The notes under the pieces are model-generated. The model was not told the DNA's origin and ran no database searches. It was given only the letters and a program-made list of their open reading frames with translations. Below are positions 13,930-20,522 of a DNA stretch of 64,000 nucleotides, piece after piece (the stretch's first letter is position 1; each line of letters starts with the position of its first letter). The DNA comes from Candidatus Aquivivens invisus. GTDB lineage: Bacteria; Omnitrophota; Gorgyraeia; Aquiviventales; Aquiviventaceae. The stretch is from positions 14,308 to 78,307 of the forward strand of contig MHGA01000006.1 in NCBI GenBank assembly GCA_001804415.1, given 5' to 3'. A program made the translations under genes and the position numbers.

Positions 13930-13969
13930 CCCCCACACCAATTGTCGCAGACAACAATTGGTGTGGGGG
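13930..13969. promoter_or_regulatory. Perfect 16-bp-arm palindrome (CCCCCACACCAATTGT-N7-ACAATTGGTGTGGGGG) immediately after the stop at 13929
   Basis: Read directly; no T-run on either side. Confidence 0.6.
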
Positions 13970-16790: not shown

Positions 16791-18548
16791 ATGGCTGATT
16801 TGCAATCCTTCCTCTCCCTCTTAGAACGCGAGGACCAACTCGCCCGCATCCGGGTGGAGGTCGATCCGGAGCTCGAGATCACCGAGATCGCCACGCGCGT
16901 GGTCAAGGAACGGGGGCCGGCGCTGTTGTTCGAGCGGGTGAAAGGCTCGGCCATCCCTCTGGCGATTAACATCTTGGGGACTGAGCGGCGCATCGAGCTC
17001 GCGCTCGGTCGGCACCCGCAAGAGGTTGGGGCCTCGCTGAAGCGCTTGATGGAAGCCGCGATGCCGCCTCGGCCCAAGCGGTTGCTCGAGGAATGGCGCA
17101 CCGTTGGCCGGGTGCTGTCGATGCCGCCCAGGCGGGTGCGTCGCGCGGCGTGCCACGACGTGGAAGAACCGCCCGACCTGGGGAAGCTGCCCATCATGAA
17201 ATGCTGGCCGAACGACGCGGGGCGGTTCATCACCTGCGGGATGGTGCTGACGCATGATCCCAAGACGGAGGTCCGGAACCTTGGCATCTACCGGATGCAG
17301 GTGGTCGGAGGCGATCAGGTGCTCATGCACTGGCAGATCCAGAAGGGCGGAGGATTCCACTATTGGAAAGCCGAGCAGCAGGGCAAGGCGCTGGCGGTCT
17401 CGGTCATCATCGGCGCAGATCCTCTCCTTTATATCGCTTCGGTCGCTCCGCTGCCTGAAGGGATTGACGAGCTGGCGTTCGCCGGATTTCTGGGAGGCCG
17501 GCGCATCCCGCTGGTGCATGGGAAGGCCACACCGACCGTCGCTCCCGCCGAGGCGGAGATCGTGCTGGAAGGTGTGGTGCCGCCTGATGAGCGCCTGCCC
17601 GAAGGGCCGTTCGGGGACCATTTCGGCCACTACTCCCATCCCGCGCCGTTTCCCGTGATGTGGGTTCAGACCATGACGCGCCGCGCCAAGCCGATTTATC
17701 TCTCGGCGGTCGTGGGCAAACCCCCTCAAGAGGACCGGTATATCGGCGACGCGGTGCAGGAGATGCTGCTGCCGATGATCCGGTTGATCCATCCGGAGCT
17801 GAAGGACCTGTGGGCCTATTACGAGGCCGGGTTTCACAGCCTGGCGGTGGCGGCGGTTGAGGAGCGGTACGGCAAGGAAGGGATGAAGACCGCCCTGGGG
17901 CTGCTGGGAACCGGGCAGATGAGCCTCACCAAGTGCCTCATCCTGGTGGATCCGGACGTCAACGCGCGCGACGCCAACGAAGTGCTGCGCGCCGTGCGCG
18001 ATCATTTCGATCCGGCGGAGGACTTTCTCTTGCTCCCTGGTGTCCCTTTTGATACGCTAGATTTTACGAGCCTGACCCCCAATCTGGGCAGCAAGATGGT
18101 GCTCGATGCCACCCGCGACGGGAAGGCATCCCCTCCAGGGGTTCCTCCAGTTGATCTGGAGGCTGTCCGGTGTCTGCATCCACGGATCCAAGCTGCCCGC
18201 ATCATCGGGGGATGTCTGGTGGCGGTCCAGGTCGAGGGCGAAGGCCGCTCGGTGGTGGAGGCGCTCGTTCAGGCGGATGCGTTGCGCGCCGTCAAGCTGA
18301 TCGCCGCGGTCAGCGCCGACGTGGACCTGCGCGAGGGCGAAAGCCTGTTGTGGGGGATCTTCACGCGGTTTGATCCCGCCCGCGACGTCGTCTTCACCGA
18401 GGTGGAGCTCCACGGAGGCTGGCCCATCCACCGAGGCCGCCTCGGCATCGATGCCACCTTCAAGACCGGATACCCTGATCCGATCGTGATGGATCCGGCA
18501 GTCGTCACACGAGTCACCCAACGATGGCCTCACTACTTCAAGGCGTAG
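16791..18548 (+). CDS. ubiD: UbiD-family decarboxylase (MqnM-like in futalosine route)
   Basis: 585 aa, UbiD family conserved blocks; starts 1 nt after ubiX stop. Confidence 0.8.
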   Translation: MADLQSFLSLLEREDQLARIRVEVDPELEITEIATRVVKERGPALLFERVKGSAIPLAINILGTERRIELALGRHPQEVGASLKRLMEAAMPPRPKRLLEEWRTVGRVLSMPPRRVRRAACHDVEEPPDLGKLPIMKCWPNDAGRFITCGMVLTHDPKTEVRNLGIYRMQVVGGDQVLMHWQIQKGGGFHYWKAEQQGKALAVSVIIGADPLLYIASVAPLPEGIDELAFAGFLGGRRIPLVHGKATPTVAPAEAEIVLEGVVPPDERLPEGPFGDHFGHYSHPAPFPVMWVQTMTRRAKPIYLSAVVGKPPQEDRYIGDAVQEMLLPMIRLIHPELKDLWAYYEAGFHSLAVAAVEERYGKEGMKTALGLLGTGQMSLTKCLILVDPDVNARDANEVLRAVRDHFDPAEDFLLLPGVPFDTLDFTSLTPNLGSKMVLDATRDGKASPPGVPPVDLEAVRCLHPRIQAARIIGGCLVAVQVEGEGRSVVEALVQADALRAVKLIAAVSADVDLREGESLLWGIFTRFDPARDVVFTEVELHGGWPIHRGRLGIDATFKTGYPDPIVMDPAVVTRVTQRWPHYFKA

Positions 18549-18574
18549 CCGACCGCCTTCAGCGCCGCGCGCGG

Positions 18575-19702
18575 ATGTCGAGAGCAGAGGCGCTGAAGCT
18601 CTTTGAGGCACGCGATCTCATCGGCCTCGGGCAATTGGCGAACGAGGTCAAGCAAGCCACATGGGGCGATCGCGCCCACTTTGTGATCAACCGCCAGATC
18701 AACCCTACGAACGTCTGCGTCCTGTCCTGCCGGTTCTGCGACTTCGCGACCAAGCGGGGACGCCCTAACGCCTACGAGATGACGATCCAGGACGTCTTAG
18801 ATCGCCTCAGCCCGGAGCTGCGGGAAGTCCACATCGTGCAGGGGCTGCATCCGGACTGGACGTGGGATTTCTACCTGGAGATGCTCCGCGCGATCAAGAC
18901 GAGCTTCCCCCGGATGCAGATCAAAGCCTGGACGGCGGTTGAGATTGACTATTTCTCCAAGAAGTTTCGCCTCTCGGTCGAAGAGGTCCTGGTGCAGATG
19001 AAGGAGGCGGGGCTCTCCGCCTTGCCCGGCGGGGGCGCGGAGGTGTTTTCCGAACGGGTGCGCAAGGCGCTGTTTCCCTTTAAAATCGGCGCGCCGAGGT
19101 GGCTGGAGATTCACCGGATCGCGCATCAGCTGGGCATCCCGACCAACGCGACCTTGCTGTACGGCCACATCGAGACGCGCGAAGAACGCGTGGATCACCT
19201 CCTGAAGCTTCGCGAACTCCAGGATGACACCGGCGGCTTCATGAGCTTCATCCCGTTGGCGTATCAAGTCGGCAAGACGCGCGTGGTCGAGCGCCAGGCG
19301 TCGGCGATCGAGGACCTCAAGACGATGGCGATCTCCAGGCTGCTCCTGGACAACATCCCCCACATCAAAGCCTACTGGGTGACGATGGGTGAAGAGACGG
19401 CGTCGATCGCCCTGAACTTCGGGGCCGATGATCTCGACGGGACGATCGGGGAGGAGCGGATCATGCATGCCGCGGATGCCGCAAGCCCGATTCGGCAGAC
19501 CCGCGAGCGGCTGGTGGAACTCATCCGAGCCTCCGGATGCGTGCCGGTGGAACGCGATGCCCTCTATCACGAGGTCGCGGTGTGCGACCCTTCGACTCGC
19601 GCCACGGCCTCTGGCCGTGGGCTCGCTCAGGATTCCGCCCCACGGGCGCAGGAAGAGGTGCCACGGGCTCTGCCCGTGGGGCTCCACAATGGCCACCGGT
19701 AA
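18575..19702 (+). CDS. Radical SAM menaquinone biosynthesis enzyme, MqnC/MqnE family (paralog 1; alternative start 18524); about 45-aa C-terminal extension encoded by hairpin repeats
   Basis: NPTNVCVLSCRFCDFA cluster motif, CofG/CofH-like fold. Confidence 0.75.
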   Translation: MSRAEALKLFEARDLIGLGQLANEVKQATWGDRAHFVINRQINPTNVCVLSCRFCDFATKRGRPNAYEMTIQDVLDRLSPELREVHIVQGLHPDWTWDFYLEMLRAIKTSFPRMQIKAWTAVEIDYFSKKFRLSVEEVLVQMKEAGLSALPGGGAEVFSERVRKALFPFKIGAPRWLEIHRIAHQLGIPTNATLLYGHIETREERVDHLLKLRELQDDTGGFMSFIPLAYQVGKTRVVERQASAIEDLKTMAISRLLLDNIPHIKAYWVTMGEETASIALNFGADDLDGTIGEERIMHAADAASPIRQTRERLVELIRASGCVPVERDALYHEVAVCDPSTRATASGRGLAQDSAPRAQEEVPRALPVGLHNGHR

Positions 19703-19736
19703 AGTCAGAAGTCAAAAGTCAGAAGTCGGAAGTACA
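19702..19736. repeat. Tandem heptanucleotide repeat (AAGTCAG)x5 (imperfect) between mqnC/E paralog 1 and mqnA
   Basis: aagtcag aagtcaa aagtcag aagtcgg aagtaca, followed by CT-rich run. Confidence 0.9.
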
Positions 19737-19766
19737 CTTCCCTCTTCCCCCTTCGCTCTTCCCCCT

Positions 19767-20522
19767 TTGACGGTGGCCCGCATTCCGTATCTCAACTGCG
19801 CGCCGTTTTTTGCCGGCCTTCCGCTCAAGCCAGGATGGGAGGTGGTCGACGTTGCGCCCAGGCGTTTAGGCCAGATGGCTGAGGAGGGCAAGTTCTTGGC
19901 GGGCGTGATGTCGCTGGCGGATTACCTGCGGTTGCAGGATCGCTTCGAGCGGATCGGGCCGCTGGGGGTGGCGGTGCGGGGACGGGTGGGCAGCGCGCTG
20001 CTGTTTTCGCGCAAACCCCTTCGGCAGCTGGACGGCGCCTGCGTCGCGGTGACGGACGAAACGTCGACGACCGCCCTGTTGCTTCGCGTGATCCTGGAAC
20101 AGCGTTACCACCTGACGGTTCGACTCGCGCCGCACGCCCACCCGACCCAGCAGGATGCTGACGCGGTGCTGCTGATCGGCGATGAGGCCTTGCGGTTTGG
20201 CAGCGTCAACCGGCTCTATCCGTTTGAGATTGATGTCGCCTTTGAATGGTGGTTGTGGCAGCATCTGCCCTGCGTCTTCGCCGTGTGGGCGATCCGCGCG
20301 GACGCCGGCGCGAGCACCAAGCGGGAGGTGAGCGAAGCCCTCCAGCGCACCCTGGCGGTCAACCTGCGTCGCCTCGATGAGCTCGTCATCCAACCGGCTG
20401 CCTCCCTGCACGTTCCGGCCGAGGACCTCACGATGTATCTGAGCCGGTTCATCTATCGTCTCAGCGCCGAGGAGGAGCGCGCCATCCAGCGCTTCGCCCA
20501 ACTGTCCCAATCCATGGCATGA
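19767..20522 (+). CDS. mqnA: Chorismate dehydratase MqnA (start uncertain: TTG 19767/GTG 19773, or ATG 19689 if heptamer tract is translated)
   Basis: RIPYLNCAPF MqnA signature, PF02621-type fold. Confidence 0.75.
   Translation: MTVARIPYLNCAPFFAGLPLKPGWEVVDVAPRRLGQMAEEGKFLAGVMSLADYLRLQDRFERIGPLGVAVRGRVGSALLFSRKPLRQLDGACVAVTDETSTTALLLRVILEQRYHLTVRLAPHAHPTQQDADAVLLIGDEALRFGSVNRLYPFEIDVAFEWWLWQHLPCVFAVWAIRADAGASTKREVSEALQRTLAVNLRRLDELVIQPAASLHVPAEDLTMYLSRFIYRLSAEEERAIQRFAQLSQSMA

What the first reader, a model, noticed from the sequence alone, without database searches (positions are those of the whole stretch)
19600..19690. Two tandem hairpins with a compensatory G/C swap encode the C-terminal tail of the first mqnC/E gene
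GCCACGGCC-UCUG-GCCGUGGGCUC (19601-19624) and GCCACGGGC-UCUG-CCCGUGGGGCUC (19660-19684) are the same hairpin with stem position 7 flipped C:G to G:C. They lie within a 45-aa extension (…STRATASGRGLAQDSAPRAQEEVPRALPVGLHNGHR) beyond the usual MqnC/MqnE C-terminus, directly before the heptamer tract and mqnA. The reading frame probably runs on by chance through an intercistronic RNA element (attenuator, REP-like sequence or protein-binding site).
Basis: seen in the sequence. Interest (0 to 1): 0.5.

Follow-up and report, generated by a model that had tools for sequence, protein, structure and literature searches.

The report
Mobile 99-base hairpin element in mqnE
The two hairpins are real, but they are parts of a 99-base mobile repeat that inserted, in frame, four codons before the end of the mqnE gene; they are not a control element of the menaquinone operon.

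Summary
CCACGGCC-TCT-GGCCGTGG (19602-19620) and CCACGGGC-TCT-GCCCGTGG (19661-19679) are two 8-bp hairpins that differ by a C:G to G:C swap. They are the only such pair in the 64 kb window.

They belong to one discrete 99-nt insertion, window 19589-19687. An ortholog more than 90% identical (P0123, DNA in L183 and L184) lacks exactly these 33 codons and ends ...VCD|NGHQ*. The insertion therefore lies inside the ancestral reading frame, four codons before the ancestral stop. It is not an intercistronic RNA that the frame runs into by chance.

Four other contigs carry copies of exactly 99 nt, in unrelated contexts. Relatives sit in frame inside mqnA, at two different places in mqnC, and antisense in a probable SPL-family radical-SAM gene. 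In 9 of 11 copies the flanking dinucleotide (AC or AT) is repeated at the far end, which fits a 2-nt target-site duplication. Three helices show compensatory changes. Hairpin 1 is the variable stem-loop of a widespread motif, CCTTCGACTCG-X-CTCGCTCAGG. Hairpin 2 is the less well supported of two alternative pairings.

I read it as a non-autonomous palindromic mobile element, most like the Rickettsia palindromic elements. It is a new member of a known kind and of moderate interest.

The parts
18524..19702 (+). mqnE (aminofutalosine synthase), 392 aa. This is the host gene of the insertion.
   Evidence: TIGR03700 gives 471.8 bits over residues 9-351. P0001 and P0121 are identical 392-aa proteins from Candidatus Omnitrophota MAGs.
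19589..19687 (+). The 99-nt inserted element, CCTTCGACTCG...GTGGGGCTCCAC, equal to codons 356-388 (PSTRATASGRGLAQDSAPRAQEEVPRALPVGLH). Read another way, it is a 97-nt core (19589-19685) plus one copy of a duplicated AC.
   Evidence: It is absent as one block from L183 and L184, orthologs of the same 90% cluster. Four other copies are exactly 99 nt (L097, L145, L212, L213). Covariance model R1 scores it 115.7 bits, and it is the only significant copy in the window.
19587..19588 (+). Left copy of the AC dinucleotide, the putative 2-nt target-site duplication. The right copy is at 19686-19687.
   Evidence: The empty site reads GCG-AC-AATGG and the filled site reads GCG-AC-[97 nt]-AC-AATGG. The flank dinucleotide equals the end dinucleotide in 9 of 11 copies: AC/AC five times and AT/AT four times.
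19589..19631 (+). Domain 1, a copy of the widespread motif: CCT (P1 5' strand), T, CGA, CTCG, [hairpin 1], C, TCG, CTC, AGG (P1 3' strand).
   Evidence: RNAalifold consensus. The metagenome scan hit at least 120 stretches and the viral scan 27. P1 changes CCT/AGG to CCC/GGG in L212 and L213.
19602..19620 (+). Hairpin 1 of the finding: CCACGGCC-TCT-GGCCGTGG. It occupies the variable X position of the motif.
   Evidence: Eleven of 12 related copies fold into a stable hairpin at this site, with at least 5 different stem sequences. Helix 1 has 2 pairs with compensatory change.
19637..19647 (+). Half-site a (GCCCCACGGGC), the 5' strand of the outer 11-bp stem of domain 2.
   Evidence: It is 11/11 complementary to 19672-19682 (I2). 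This pairing is in the MFE and centroid of the isolated element and in the RNAalifold consensus. Its cells are 93.8% paired, with 3 compensatory pairs.
19661..19679 (+). Hairpin 2 of the finding: a' (CCACGGGC), loop TCT, and the inner 8 nt of b (GCCCGTGG). It is the alternative pairing to a-b.
   Evidence: Its cells are 85.0% paired, with 1 compensatory pair. In L213 a double change keeps a-b but breaks a'-b.
19672..19682 (+). Half-site b (GCCCGTGGGGC), the shared 3' strand that can pair with either a or a'.
19688..19702 (+). The ancestral last four codons of mqnE (N-G-H-R) and the TAA stop.
   Evidence: The empty-site ortholog ends ...VCDNGHQ*. More distant relatives end ...VYENGHR(LS/PA)*.
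19702..19767 (+). Adjacent heptamer-array palindrome, (AAGTCAG)x4.6 followed by (CTTCCCC)x4.4, filling the mqnE-mqnA gap. It is a separate repeat and not part of the 99-nt unit.
   Evidence: TRF. It is absent from L183. In L212 the 99-nt element lies between two inverted heptamer arrays, and in L014 a heptamer palindrome is nested in a related element.
19773..20522 (+). mqnA, the downstream gene. The start is GTG at 19773 or TTG at 19767.
   Evidence: BLASTP to L003 MqnA. The neighbouring gene in L183 carries PF02621 VitK2_biosynth.

Best explanation
The two hairpins are structural modules of one 97-nt non-autonomous mobile element (99 nt with its duplicated AC). It belongs to a dispersed family of GC-rich palindromic repeats.

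Shown: the element inserted between codons 355 and 389 of mqnE, four codons before the ancestral stop. Because the insert is 33 codons long, translation continues through it to the ancestral NGHR-stop.

Inferred: the 33 added residues are tolerated and disordered. The AlphaFold model has low confidence there.

Shown: hairpin 1 is the variable stem-loop X of the conserved motif YCCT-T-CGA-CTCG-[X]-C-TCG-CTC-AGGR. Hairpin 2 is the inner alternative (a'-b) of a second domain, whose outer 11-bp stem (a-b) is the better conserved pairing.

Inferred: the stems are kept complementary because the folded single strand, DNA or RNA, is what an unidentified trans-acting enzyme recognises during spread. 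Correction of one palindrome arm against the other by template switching could add to this. The C:G to G:C swap between the two hairpins is then an old, fixed difference between two related modules of the element, not a feature tuned to the mqn operon.

Inferred: any effect on mqnE or mqnA expression is incidental.
For: 1. Presence or absence at one site. P0123 (359 aa, same 90% cluster) ends VCDNGHQ*. Its DNA (L183, L184) aligns with the window on both sides and lacks exactly 99 nt.

2. A discrete unit. Five copies in different contexts are each exactly 99 nt and 77-92% identical to one another.

3. Dispersal.
- L212: between an adenylosuccinate lyase gene (Lyase_1/ADSL_C) and a PEGA-domain gene.
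- L097, L145: not inside any long open frame.
- L003: in frame inside mqnA.
- L014 and L058: related type-3 elements sharing both hairpins, in frame at two different places in mqnC.
- L114: antisense in what is probably the 5' part of an SPL-family gene.
- L003a, L010b, L011: other family members at the same mqnE-tail site.

4. Insertion signature. The left flank dinucleotide equals the dinucleotide after ...GGGGCTCC in 9 of 11 copies, AC/AC five times and AT/AT four times.

5. Nucleotide-level, not peptide-level, conservation.
- The two hairpins are read in different phases.
- Other predicted proteins read the element in another frame (P0126-P0130).
- L114 carries it antisense.

6. Structure is maintained.
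- P1: CCT/AGG becomes CCC/GGG.
- Hairpin 1: A:T becomes C:G.
- a-b stem: G:C becomes C:G in L003b and C:G becomes T:A in L213.
- With HP1 plus a-b, 90.3% of cells pair, against 38-50% when the partners are slid; 5 pairs show changes on both sides, reached by 3 of 500 shuffles.
- In 130 copies of the wider motif, the pair flanking P1 covaries: T:A 58, C:G 51, so 111/130 paired against 84 expected. X of 9 nt or more ends in a stem of at least 4 bp in 26 of 66 copies, against 1.9 in shuffles.

7. Translated rather than removed. Eleven of 12 copies have lengths divisible by three.

8. The tail, residues 357-392, has pLDDT 26-32 and no secondary structure.
Against: - No transposase or other mobilising enzyme was identified, and no autonomous longer version was seen in about 1.3 Mb of fetched loci.
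- This subtype has no terminal inverted repeats, so the transposition chemistry is unknown. The 2-nt repeat could in principle reflect target preference plus microhomology rather than duplication.
- The window holds only one copy in 64 kb, and the copy number in this genome is unknown.
- Stem maintenance and the conserved a/a'/b triple are equally what a functional RNA would show. The family could have an RNA-level role that I could not test.
- All covariation rests on 8-12 related sequences.
Confidence: 0.8

Rival explanations
1. The element is a cis-acting RNA switch or attenuator for the mqn operon. The three half-sites a, a' and b form mutually exclusive hairpins (a-b versus a'-b) at the end of mqnE. 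These would control ribosome release, mRNA stability or translation of mqnA.
For: - b can pair with either a (11 bp) or a' (8 bp).
- The triple arrangement is conserved in the long-form copies (window, L097, L145, L157, L212, L213).
- It lies 20 nt before the stop codon, upstream of mqnA.
Against: - The closest ortholog has the same operon without it.
- L001 and L002, the next closest relatives, also lack it.
- The same unit occurs in unrelated contexts and in the antisense orientation.
- There is no T-run terminator or promoter and no Rfam family; the best match is ZMP/ZTP at 17.2 bits against a gathering score of 39, E = 2.5.
- The hairpins lie inside the translated ORF, so ribosomes would unwind them.
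Confidence: 0.07
2. The element is a REP/REPIN-type repeat mobilised by a RAYT (REP-associated tyrosine transposase). The two hairpins would be two REP units of a BIME-like mosaic.
For: - The hairpins are GC-rich, about 20 nt long and lie near the 3' end of a gene, like REPs (abstract of PMC3733652, which also reports REPs inside genes).
- The architecture is a modular mosaic, with the same hairpins in two different element types.
Against: - Neither hairpin has a GTAG or CGTC tag next to it (read; definition from PMC3733652).
- The two hairpins are in direct orientation, not the inverted orientation of REPINs.
- The mobile unit is a fixed 97/99-nt block with a 2-nt flank duplication. To my knowledge REPINs do not show this.
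- No RAYT was seen, although the window's proteins were not all scanned.
Confidence: 0.08
3. The element is a protein-level module. The 33 residues would be a functional C-terminal extension or linker, selected as peptide.
For: - Four independent sense insertions read the right end in the same phase, as ...P(V/A)GL(H/Q) (window, L003b, L014, L058).
- Lengths are nearly always multiples of three.
Against: - The peptide is absent from the ortholog that is more than 90% identical, and from all other MqnE tails examined.
- The two related hairpins are read in different phases.
- The element is read in another phase in P0126-P0130 and antisense in L114.
- The tail is predicted disordered, though at low confidence.
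- Intergenic copies exist.
Confidence: 0.03
4. The similarity arose by chance, or by a local duplication in GC-rich coding sequence.
For: GC-rich DNA yields many short palindromes. The window has about 20 distinct perfect hairpins of 8 bp or more, against about 11 in simple shuffles.
Against: - The pattern count is far above shuffles.
- Homologous 99-nt copies exist elsewhere, with nhmmer E-values from 1e-13 to 5e-6 and CM scores up to 88.6 bits.
- There is a precise empty site.
Confidence: 0.01

Closest known systems
Rickettsia palindromic elements (RPEs)
   Same: Both are interspersed palindromic repeats of about 100-150 bp found in intergenic and in protein-coding regions. Both insert in frame into unrelated metabolic genes, are translated as part of the host protein, and have no known transposase (PMC1779305; PMC10969869). 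Here the canonical unit is 99 nt, or 33 codons. It or its relatives sit in frame in MqnE, MqnA, MqnC (at two sites) and probably an SPL-family protein.
   Different: There is no sequence relationship. The host is a GC-rich free-living groundwater Candidatus Omnitrophota, not an AT-rich obligate intracellular alphaproteobacterium. Each RPE family is reported to encode a conserved peptide (PMC10969869), whereas this element is read in at least two sense phases and also antisense. A 2-nt AY flank duplication is seen here. The element is built from a motif shared with a much wider family in soil, peat and groundwater metagenomes.
Bacterial MITEs, for example Coxiella QMITE1 and the Correia element
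   Same: Both are small, non-autonomous and multi-copy, with short direct repeats at the insertion site. QMITE1 has 2-3 nt direct repeats and often overlaps ORFs (PMC5896051). Both can make in-frame fusions with host ORFs (PMC10969869).
   Different: The 99-nt subtype has no terminal inverted repeats: the left end is CCTTCGACTCG and the right end is GTGGGGCTCC. Related type-1 elements (L010b, L003a) do have them, TCCTTCGACTCG...CGAGTCGAGGGA. No parent insertion sequence is known.
REP / BIME / REPIN elements with RAYT transposases
   Same: Both are GC-rich stem-loops, mostly at the 3' ends of genes, combined into mosaics. REPs are occasionally intragenic and are thought to act as RNA hairpins or as transposase substrates (PMC3733652).
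   Different: There is no GTAG or CGTC tag. The hairpins are direct rather than inverted. The mobile unit is the whole 97-nt block, with a 2-nt duplication. No RAYT was found.
Transcription attenuators with alternative hairpins
   Same: Three half-sites allow two mutually exclusive stems.
   Different: There is no leader peptide logic, no terminator T-run and no link to a particular operon. The arrangement travels with the mobile element.

Membership tests
MITE (miniature inverted-repeat transposable element) | Small size (about 50-500 bp) with no transposase gene inside | tested here: met
   The core is 97 nt, too short to hold a transposase gene.
MITE (miniature inverted-repeat transposable element) | Multiple dispersed copies | tested here: met
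   There are five 99-nt copies plus at least 6 variant copies on different contigs. The wider motif occurs in at least 120 metagenome stretches. The window itself holds only 1 copy in 64 kb.
MITE (miniature inverted-repeat transposable element) | Target-site duplication | tested here: met
   The empty site GCG-AC-AATGG becomes GCG-AC-[97 nt]-AC-AATGG. Flank and end dinucleotides match in 9 of 11 copies, with both AC and AT versions. Two nucleotides is short, so microhomology is not excluded.
MITE (miniature inverted-repeat transposable element) | Terminal inverted repeats | tested here: not met
   The left end CCTTCGACTCG and the reverse complement of the right end, GGAGCCCCAC, are unrelated. 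Type-1 relatives do have inverted ends.
Rickettsia palindromic elements (kind, not sequence family) | Palindromic repeat of 100-150 bp found in both intergenic and coding regions | tested here: met
   The unit is 99 nt. For coding and intergenic copies.
Rickettsia palindromic elements (kind, not sequence family) | In-frame insertion that keeps the host ORF open | tested here: met
   The window insertion is 33 codons. L058 shows an exact 42-aa gap and L014 an 81-aa gap, and L003 MqnA carries an in-frame insertion. Eleven of 12 lengths are divisible by 3.
Rickettsia palindromic elements (kind, not sequence family) | Sequence homology to an RPE family, or occurrence in Rickettsiales | not tested
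   No RPE sequences or profile HMMs were available here. The host is Candidatus Omnitrophota, so this is at most an analogue.
Rickettsia palindromic elements (kind, not sequence family) | Each family encodes one conserved peptide, in one reading phase | tested here: not met
   The sense phase differs between the window, L003b, L014 and L058 on one hand and P0126-P0130 on the other. L114 is antisense.
REP / REPIN | Palindrome of 20-40 nt with an unpaired GTAG or CGTC tag at one end | tested here: not met
   No GTAG or CGTC adjoins either hairpin in the window. GTAG occurs 8 nt upstream of a' in L097 and L145 only. The definition is from PMC3733652.
REP / REPIN | Two REPs in inverted orientation forming the mobile unit | tested here: not met
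   The two hairpins are direct repeats (D1).
REP / REPIN | A cognate RAYT gene in the genome | not tested
   Only 64 kb of this genome is available, and its proteins were not all scanned.
Rfam cis-regulatory RNA, any family | Match at or above the gathering score | tested here: not met
   Window 19300-20000 gave only ZMP/ZTP at 17.2 bits against a gathering score of 39. Eighteen loci carrying family copies matched only tRNAs.
Intrinsic terminator or attenuator | GC-rich hairpin followed by a T-run | tested here: not met
   No terminator-like site lies at 19580-19770.

The most novel reading that the evidence does not exclude
The 99-nt unit and the much wider CCTTCGACTCG-X-CTCGCTCAGG motif family are an undescribed class of structured mobile elements found in several kinds of environmental bacteria and in viral contigs. 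On this reading, their codon-compatible length (11 of 12 lengths are multiples of three), their covarying helices and their conserved a/a'/b alternative pairing are adaptations for living inside coding sequences. That would be a GC-rich, free-living counterpart of the Rickettsia palindromic elements, perhaps with an RNA-level activity of its own. It would be mobilised by an enzyme that makes 2-nt AY duplications without needing terminal inverted repeats.
Probability: 0.25. Interest if true: 0.65.

Novelty: new member of a known kind. Interest (0 to 1): 0.38.

Why it matters
For annotation, the odd 33-residue stretch in this MqnE and the large unexplained inserts in MqnA and MqnC of related MAGs are selfish-DNA insertions. 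They are not new domains, assembly errors or regulatory leaders.

For biology, in-frame colonisation of conserved enzymes by palindromic repeats has been treated as a hallmark of Rickettsia. Finding the same behaviour in GC-rich groundwater Omnitrophota suggests it is more general. The element here also has a defined empty site, a 2-nt duplication and covarying helices.

This gives a tractable case for two questions: which enzyme moves such TIR-less hairpin elements, and how do proteins tolerate them?

The finding does not reveal a new regulatory mechanism for menaquinone synthesis.

Tried and rejected
- **Rfam.** Window 19300-20000 at E up to 10, and 18 loci at gathering threshold. Nothing relevant.
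- **Terminator and promoter scan.** Nothing at the hairpins.
- **Other copies in the window.** Exact and mismatch pattern searches, nhmmer and a covariance model with filters off found only the one copy. The end motifs CCTTCGACTCG and CTCGCTCAGGAT are not enriched in the window.
- **BLASTN of the element against PLSDB plasmids and INPHARED phages.** No match.
- **Literature.** A search for the motif strings returned only unrelated primer or sequence matches. No paper links Omnitrophota with such repeats. Ogata 2002 (PMC186582) is not held.
- **Word-index protein search with the 43-aa tail peptide.** It returned no candidate, because the query is too short for the index.
- **My one full-library phmmer job used the wrong codon phase.** I started at 19585 instead of 19586. 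It therefore tested the phase RPFDSRHGLWPWARSGF... and not DPSTRATASG.... The five hits are still informative, since they show the element is translated in another phase elsewhere. The number of proteins carrying the mqnE-phase peptide remains unmeasured.
- **Search for a longer autonomous element** bounded by the same ends in all fetched loci. None found. My first regular expression for the right end was wrong and was corrected.
- **The covariance-model hit L004 964-1064** (14.7 bits) lies in ordinary coding sequence, apparently UbiX-like by eye and not confirmed. I rejected it.
- **Same reading phase in all copies.** I considered this as evidence for a peptide function and rejected it after and the antisense copy in L114.
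Full report
**1. The observation**

The region reads ...gtg tgc gac CCT TCG ACT CGC GCC ACG GCC TCT GGC CGT GGG CTC GCT CAG GAT TCC GCC CCA CGG GCG CAG GAA GAG GTG CCA CGG GCT CTG CCC GTG GGG CTC CAC aat ggc cac cgg taa.

- The two hairpins are CCACGGCC-TCT-GGCCGTGG (19602-19620) and CCACGGGC-TCT-GCCCGTGG (19661-19679).
- Each has an 8-bp stem and a 3-nt loop. They differ by a C:G to G:C swap at stem position 7.
- The degenerate pattern with up to 3 mismatches gives 5 matches where 0.24 are expected, and none of 100 shuffles reached 5.
- No other exact copy exists in the 64 kb window.
- The ORF 18524-19702 is MqnE. TIGR03700 scores 471.8 bits and its profile ends at residue 351 of 392.
- The operon reads ubiX, a UbiD-family menaquinone decarboxylase, mqnE, mqnA, mqnC, bioB.
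- The two hairpins are translated in different codon phases (ATASGRG versus VPRALPVG). Their similarity is therefore at nucleotide level.
- A third half-site, GCCCCACGGGC (19637-19647), is fully complementary to GCCCGTGGGGC (19672-19682).

**2. The tail is a precise 99-nt insertion**

The organism is a GC-rich groundwater Candidatus Omnitrophota.

- MqnE tails of relatives are short. Examples are ...ERDALYQTVNVYENGHAVVA* and ...VYENGHRLS*. Many end ...VYDDHAxCESxVSQ*, a tail that by my reading overlaps the start of mqnA.
- The 90%-identity cluster of the window protein holds a 359-aa member, P0123, that ends ...ERDALYREIMVCDNGHQ.
- The DNA of P0123 (L183, L184) aligns with the window on both sides of a single 99-nt gap. 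The empty site reads GTATGCG-AC-AATGGGCACCAGTGA. The window reads GTGTGCG-AC-[97 nt]-AC-AATGGCCACCGGTAA.
- The insert is window 19589-19687, equal to codons 356-388. The last four codons and the stop are ancestral.
- AlphaFold2 with a 25-sequence alignment gives pLDDT 26-32 and no secondary structure for residues 357-392. The model as a whole is only moderate, with mean pLDDT 64.8.

**3. The insert is a copy of a dispersed element**

Searching the fetched loci with BLASTN, nhmmer and a covariance model finds homologous copies.

Full-length copies of exactly 99 nt, 77-92% identical to one another:

| Copy | Context |
|---|---|
| L097 | not inside any long open frame |
| L145 | not inside any long open frame |
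| L212 | between an adenylosuccinate lyase gene (Lyase_1/ADSL_C) and a PEGA-domain gene, flanked by two inverted heptamer arrays |
| L213 | at the 3' end of a called ORF with no family match |

Variant copies:

| Copy | Length (nt) | Context |
|---|---|---|
| L114 | 78 | antisense, probably in the 5' part of an SPL-family radical-SAM gene |
| L157 | 123 | next to a ThiS-family gene |
| L003b | 159, with a nested element | in frame inside mqnA |
| L011 | 107 | antisense, in the mqnE tail |

Type-3 relatives share hairpin 1 and hairpin 2 with the right end, but not the left motif. They sit in frame at two different places in MqnC.

- L014 has an 81-aa gap near the N-terminus.
- L058 has an exact 42-aa gap near the C-terminus. 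L010c appears to be the same insertion: it has the same flanking sequence on both sides.

L003a and L010b carry type-1 elements, which do have inverted ends (TCCTTCGACTCG...CGAGTCGAGGGA). They lie at the same VYD| position of the mqnE tail. That junction is therefore a repeated landing site.

**4. Insertion signature**

- The dinucleotide to the left of CCTTCG/CCCGCC equals the dinucleotide after ...GGGGCTCC in 9 of 11 copies.
- AC/AC occurs in the window, L097, L145, L114 and L014.
- AT/AT occurs in L011, L058, L212 and L213.
- The exceptions are L003b (AC/AG) and L157 (GC/AC).
- Together with the empty site, this fits a 2-nt AY target-site duplication after a YSRAY-like target.
- The 99-nt subtype has no terminal inverted repeats.
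- Eleven of 12 copies have lengths divisible by three. This is expected if intragenic copies stay in the mRNA and are translated.

**5. Anatomy and structure**

*Domain 1 (19589-19631).* It reads CCT-T-CGA-CTCG-[hairpin 1]-C-TCG-CTC-AGG, with CCT/AGG and CGA/TCG paired.

- This is one instance of a very widespread motif.
- In 130 copies, the pair just outside CCT/AGG covaries: T:A 58, C:G 51, C.A 18. That is 111 paired against 84 expected.
- A variable segment X of 9 nt or more ends in a stem of at least 4 bp in 26 of 66 cases, against 1.9 in shuffles.
- Hairpin 1 is this X. Eleven of 12 related copies hold a stable hairpin there, with at least five different stem sequences.

*Domain 2 (19637-19682).* It has half-sites a, a' and b.

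- Short forms (L114, L003b) have only a-b with the TCT or AGA loop.
- Long forms carry an extra 21 nt that repeats CCACGGGC as a'.
- The finding's hairpin 2 is a'-b.
- The a-b stem is the MFE and centroid pairing of the isolated element and the RNAalifold consensus.
- On 8 sequences, a-b is 93.8% paired with 3 compensatory pairs. a'-b is 85.0% paired with 1.
- In L213 a double change (C to T and G to A) keeps a-b but breaks a'-b.
- P1 also covaries: CCT/AGG becomes CCC/GGG in L212 and L213.

**6. What it is not**

- It has no Rfam family, no terminator or promoter and no plasmid or phage match.
- It is not a conserved peptide. My full-library phmmer run was submitted one base out of phase by my error. 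It found five protein clusters (P0126-P0130) that translate the element in a different phase, one of them internally.
- L114 carries the element antisense.

**7. Mechanism**

Shown:
- a discrete 97/99-nt unit;
- a precise filled and empty site;
- dispersed copies in unrelated contexts and in both orientations;
- a flank dinucleotide repeat;
- helices kept by compensatory change;
- in-frame residence in several enzymes.

Inferred:
- The element spreads with the help of an unidentified trans-acting enzyme that recognises the folded strand.
- Stem complementarity is kept by that requirement, and possibly by arm-against-arm correction.
- The 33 residues added to MqnE are tolerated and disordered.
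- Effects on mqnE or mqnA expression are incidental.

The regulatory-switch reading cannot be excluded for the family as a whole. It is unlikely for this operon, because the closest ortholog does without the element.

**8. Comparison with known elements and novelty**

- The behaviour is closest to the Rickettsia palindromic elements. These are repeats of 100-150 bp in intergenic and coding regions, often in frame in metabolic genes (PMC1779305; PMC10969869).
- It is also close to MITEs with very short direct repeats that overlap ORFs (PMC5896051).
- It fails the REP definition, having no GTAG or CGTC tag (PMC3733652), and the MITE requirement for terminal inverted repeats.
- I file it as a new member of a known kind, a non-autonomous palindromic mobile repeat that tolerates coding sequence, in a phylum where I found no description of such elements.
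- Interest is moderate. It explains an odd gene tail and several large inserts in related MAGs, and it extends an RPE-like phenomenon beyond Rickettsiales. It is not a new regulatory principle.

Noticed in passing
window 19702-19767; also L001 1554-1584, L002 2467-2535, L014 5092-5123, L212 about 1330-1365 and 1505-1540, and many others: Heptamer arrays. In the window, (AAGTCAG)x4.6 followed by (CTTCCCC)x4.4 fills the mqnE-mqnA gap and is absent from the empty-site relative L183. Across 1.28 Mb of fetched loci, period 7 is the commonest tandem-repeat period (79 arrays). Many arrays are close to 4.4-4.7 copies (31-33 nt), and the heptamer differs from array to array. Several come as pairs with a partly complementary second array 50-90 nt away. 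In L212 the 99-nt element sits between such a pair, and in L014 a pair is nested inside a related element. This looks like a separate class of repeat, reminiscent (from memory) of cyanobacterial STRR heptamers.
   Followed up: partly
window 20119-20131 (inside mqnA): TTCGACTCGCGCC is a 13-nt exact match to the left part of the element (19591-19603). It lies in the variable region of mqnA where L003 carries its in-frame copy, but is read in a different phase (VRLAP). It may be a remnant or a coincidence; the BLAST E-value was 0.59.
   Followed up: no
L003 4065-4155, L010 1776-1925, L011 3420-3530 (mqnE tails of related MAGs): The VYD|D position at the mqnE-mqnA junction has been hit independently by other family members: type-1 elements with inverted ends, one carrying large nested inserts, and one antisense copy. 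These truncate or replace the tail. By my reading of the sequences, in most relatives this tail (VYDDHAxCESxVSQ*) overlaps the 5' end of mqnA, which would explain its conservation.
   Followed up: partly
L058 40-95: A small GC palindrome, CCCCGCCCCGTGGGGCGGGG, lies in frame inside what looks like an MqnE-family gene (DEVPGFTPPRGAGFMSF where the window has DDTGGFMSF). This suggests that even bare hairpins are tolerated in conserved enzymes of these genomes.
   Followed up: no
L010 605-750: A cluster of at least two or three family elements lies immediately upstream of the mqnE start, where ubiD and mqnE overlap in the window. One has the hairpin CCCCGCCCGCGGGCGGGG at the X site.
   Followed up: no
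window 13930-13969: A perfect 16-bp inverted repeat with an 8-nt loop (CCCCCACACCAATTGT-CGCAGACA-ACAATTGGTGTGGGGG). It is the longest hairpin in the window and is unrelated to the family studied.
   Followed up: no
L198 (viral contig, 5 motif copies in 14 kb), L106 (3 copies in 2.4 kb), L108 5470-5555 (tandem copies): The wider CCTTCGACTCG-X-CTCGCTCAGG motif can be very dense locally and occurs on contigs classed as viral. The taxonomic origin of most metagenome copies was not determined.
   Followed up: no
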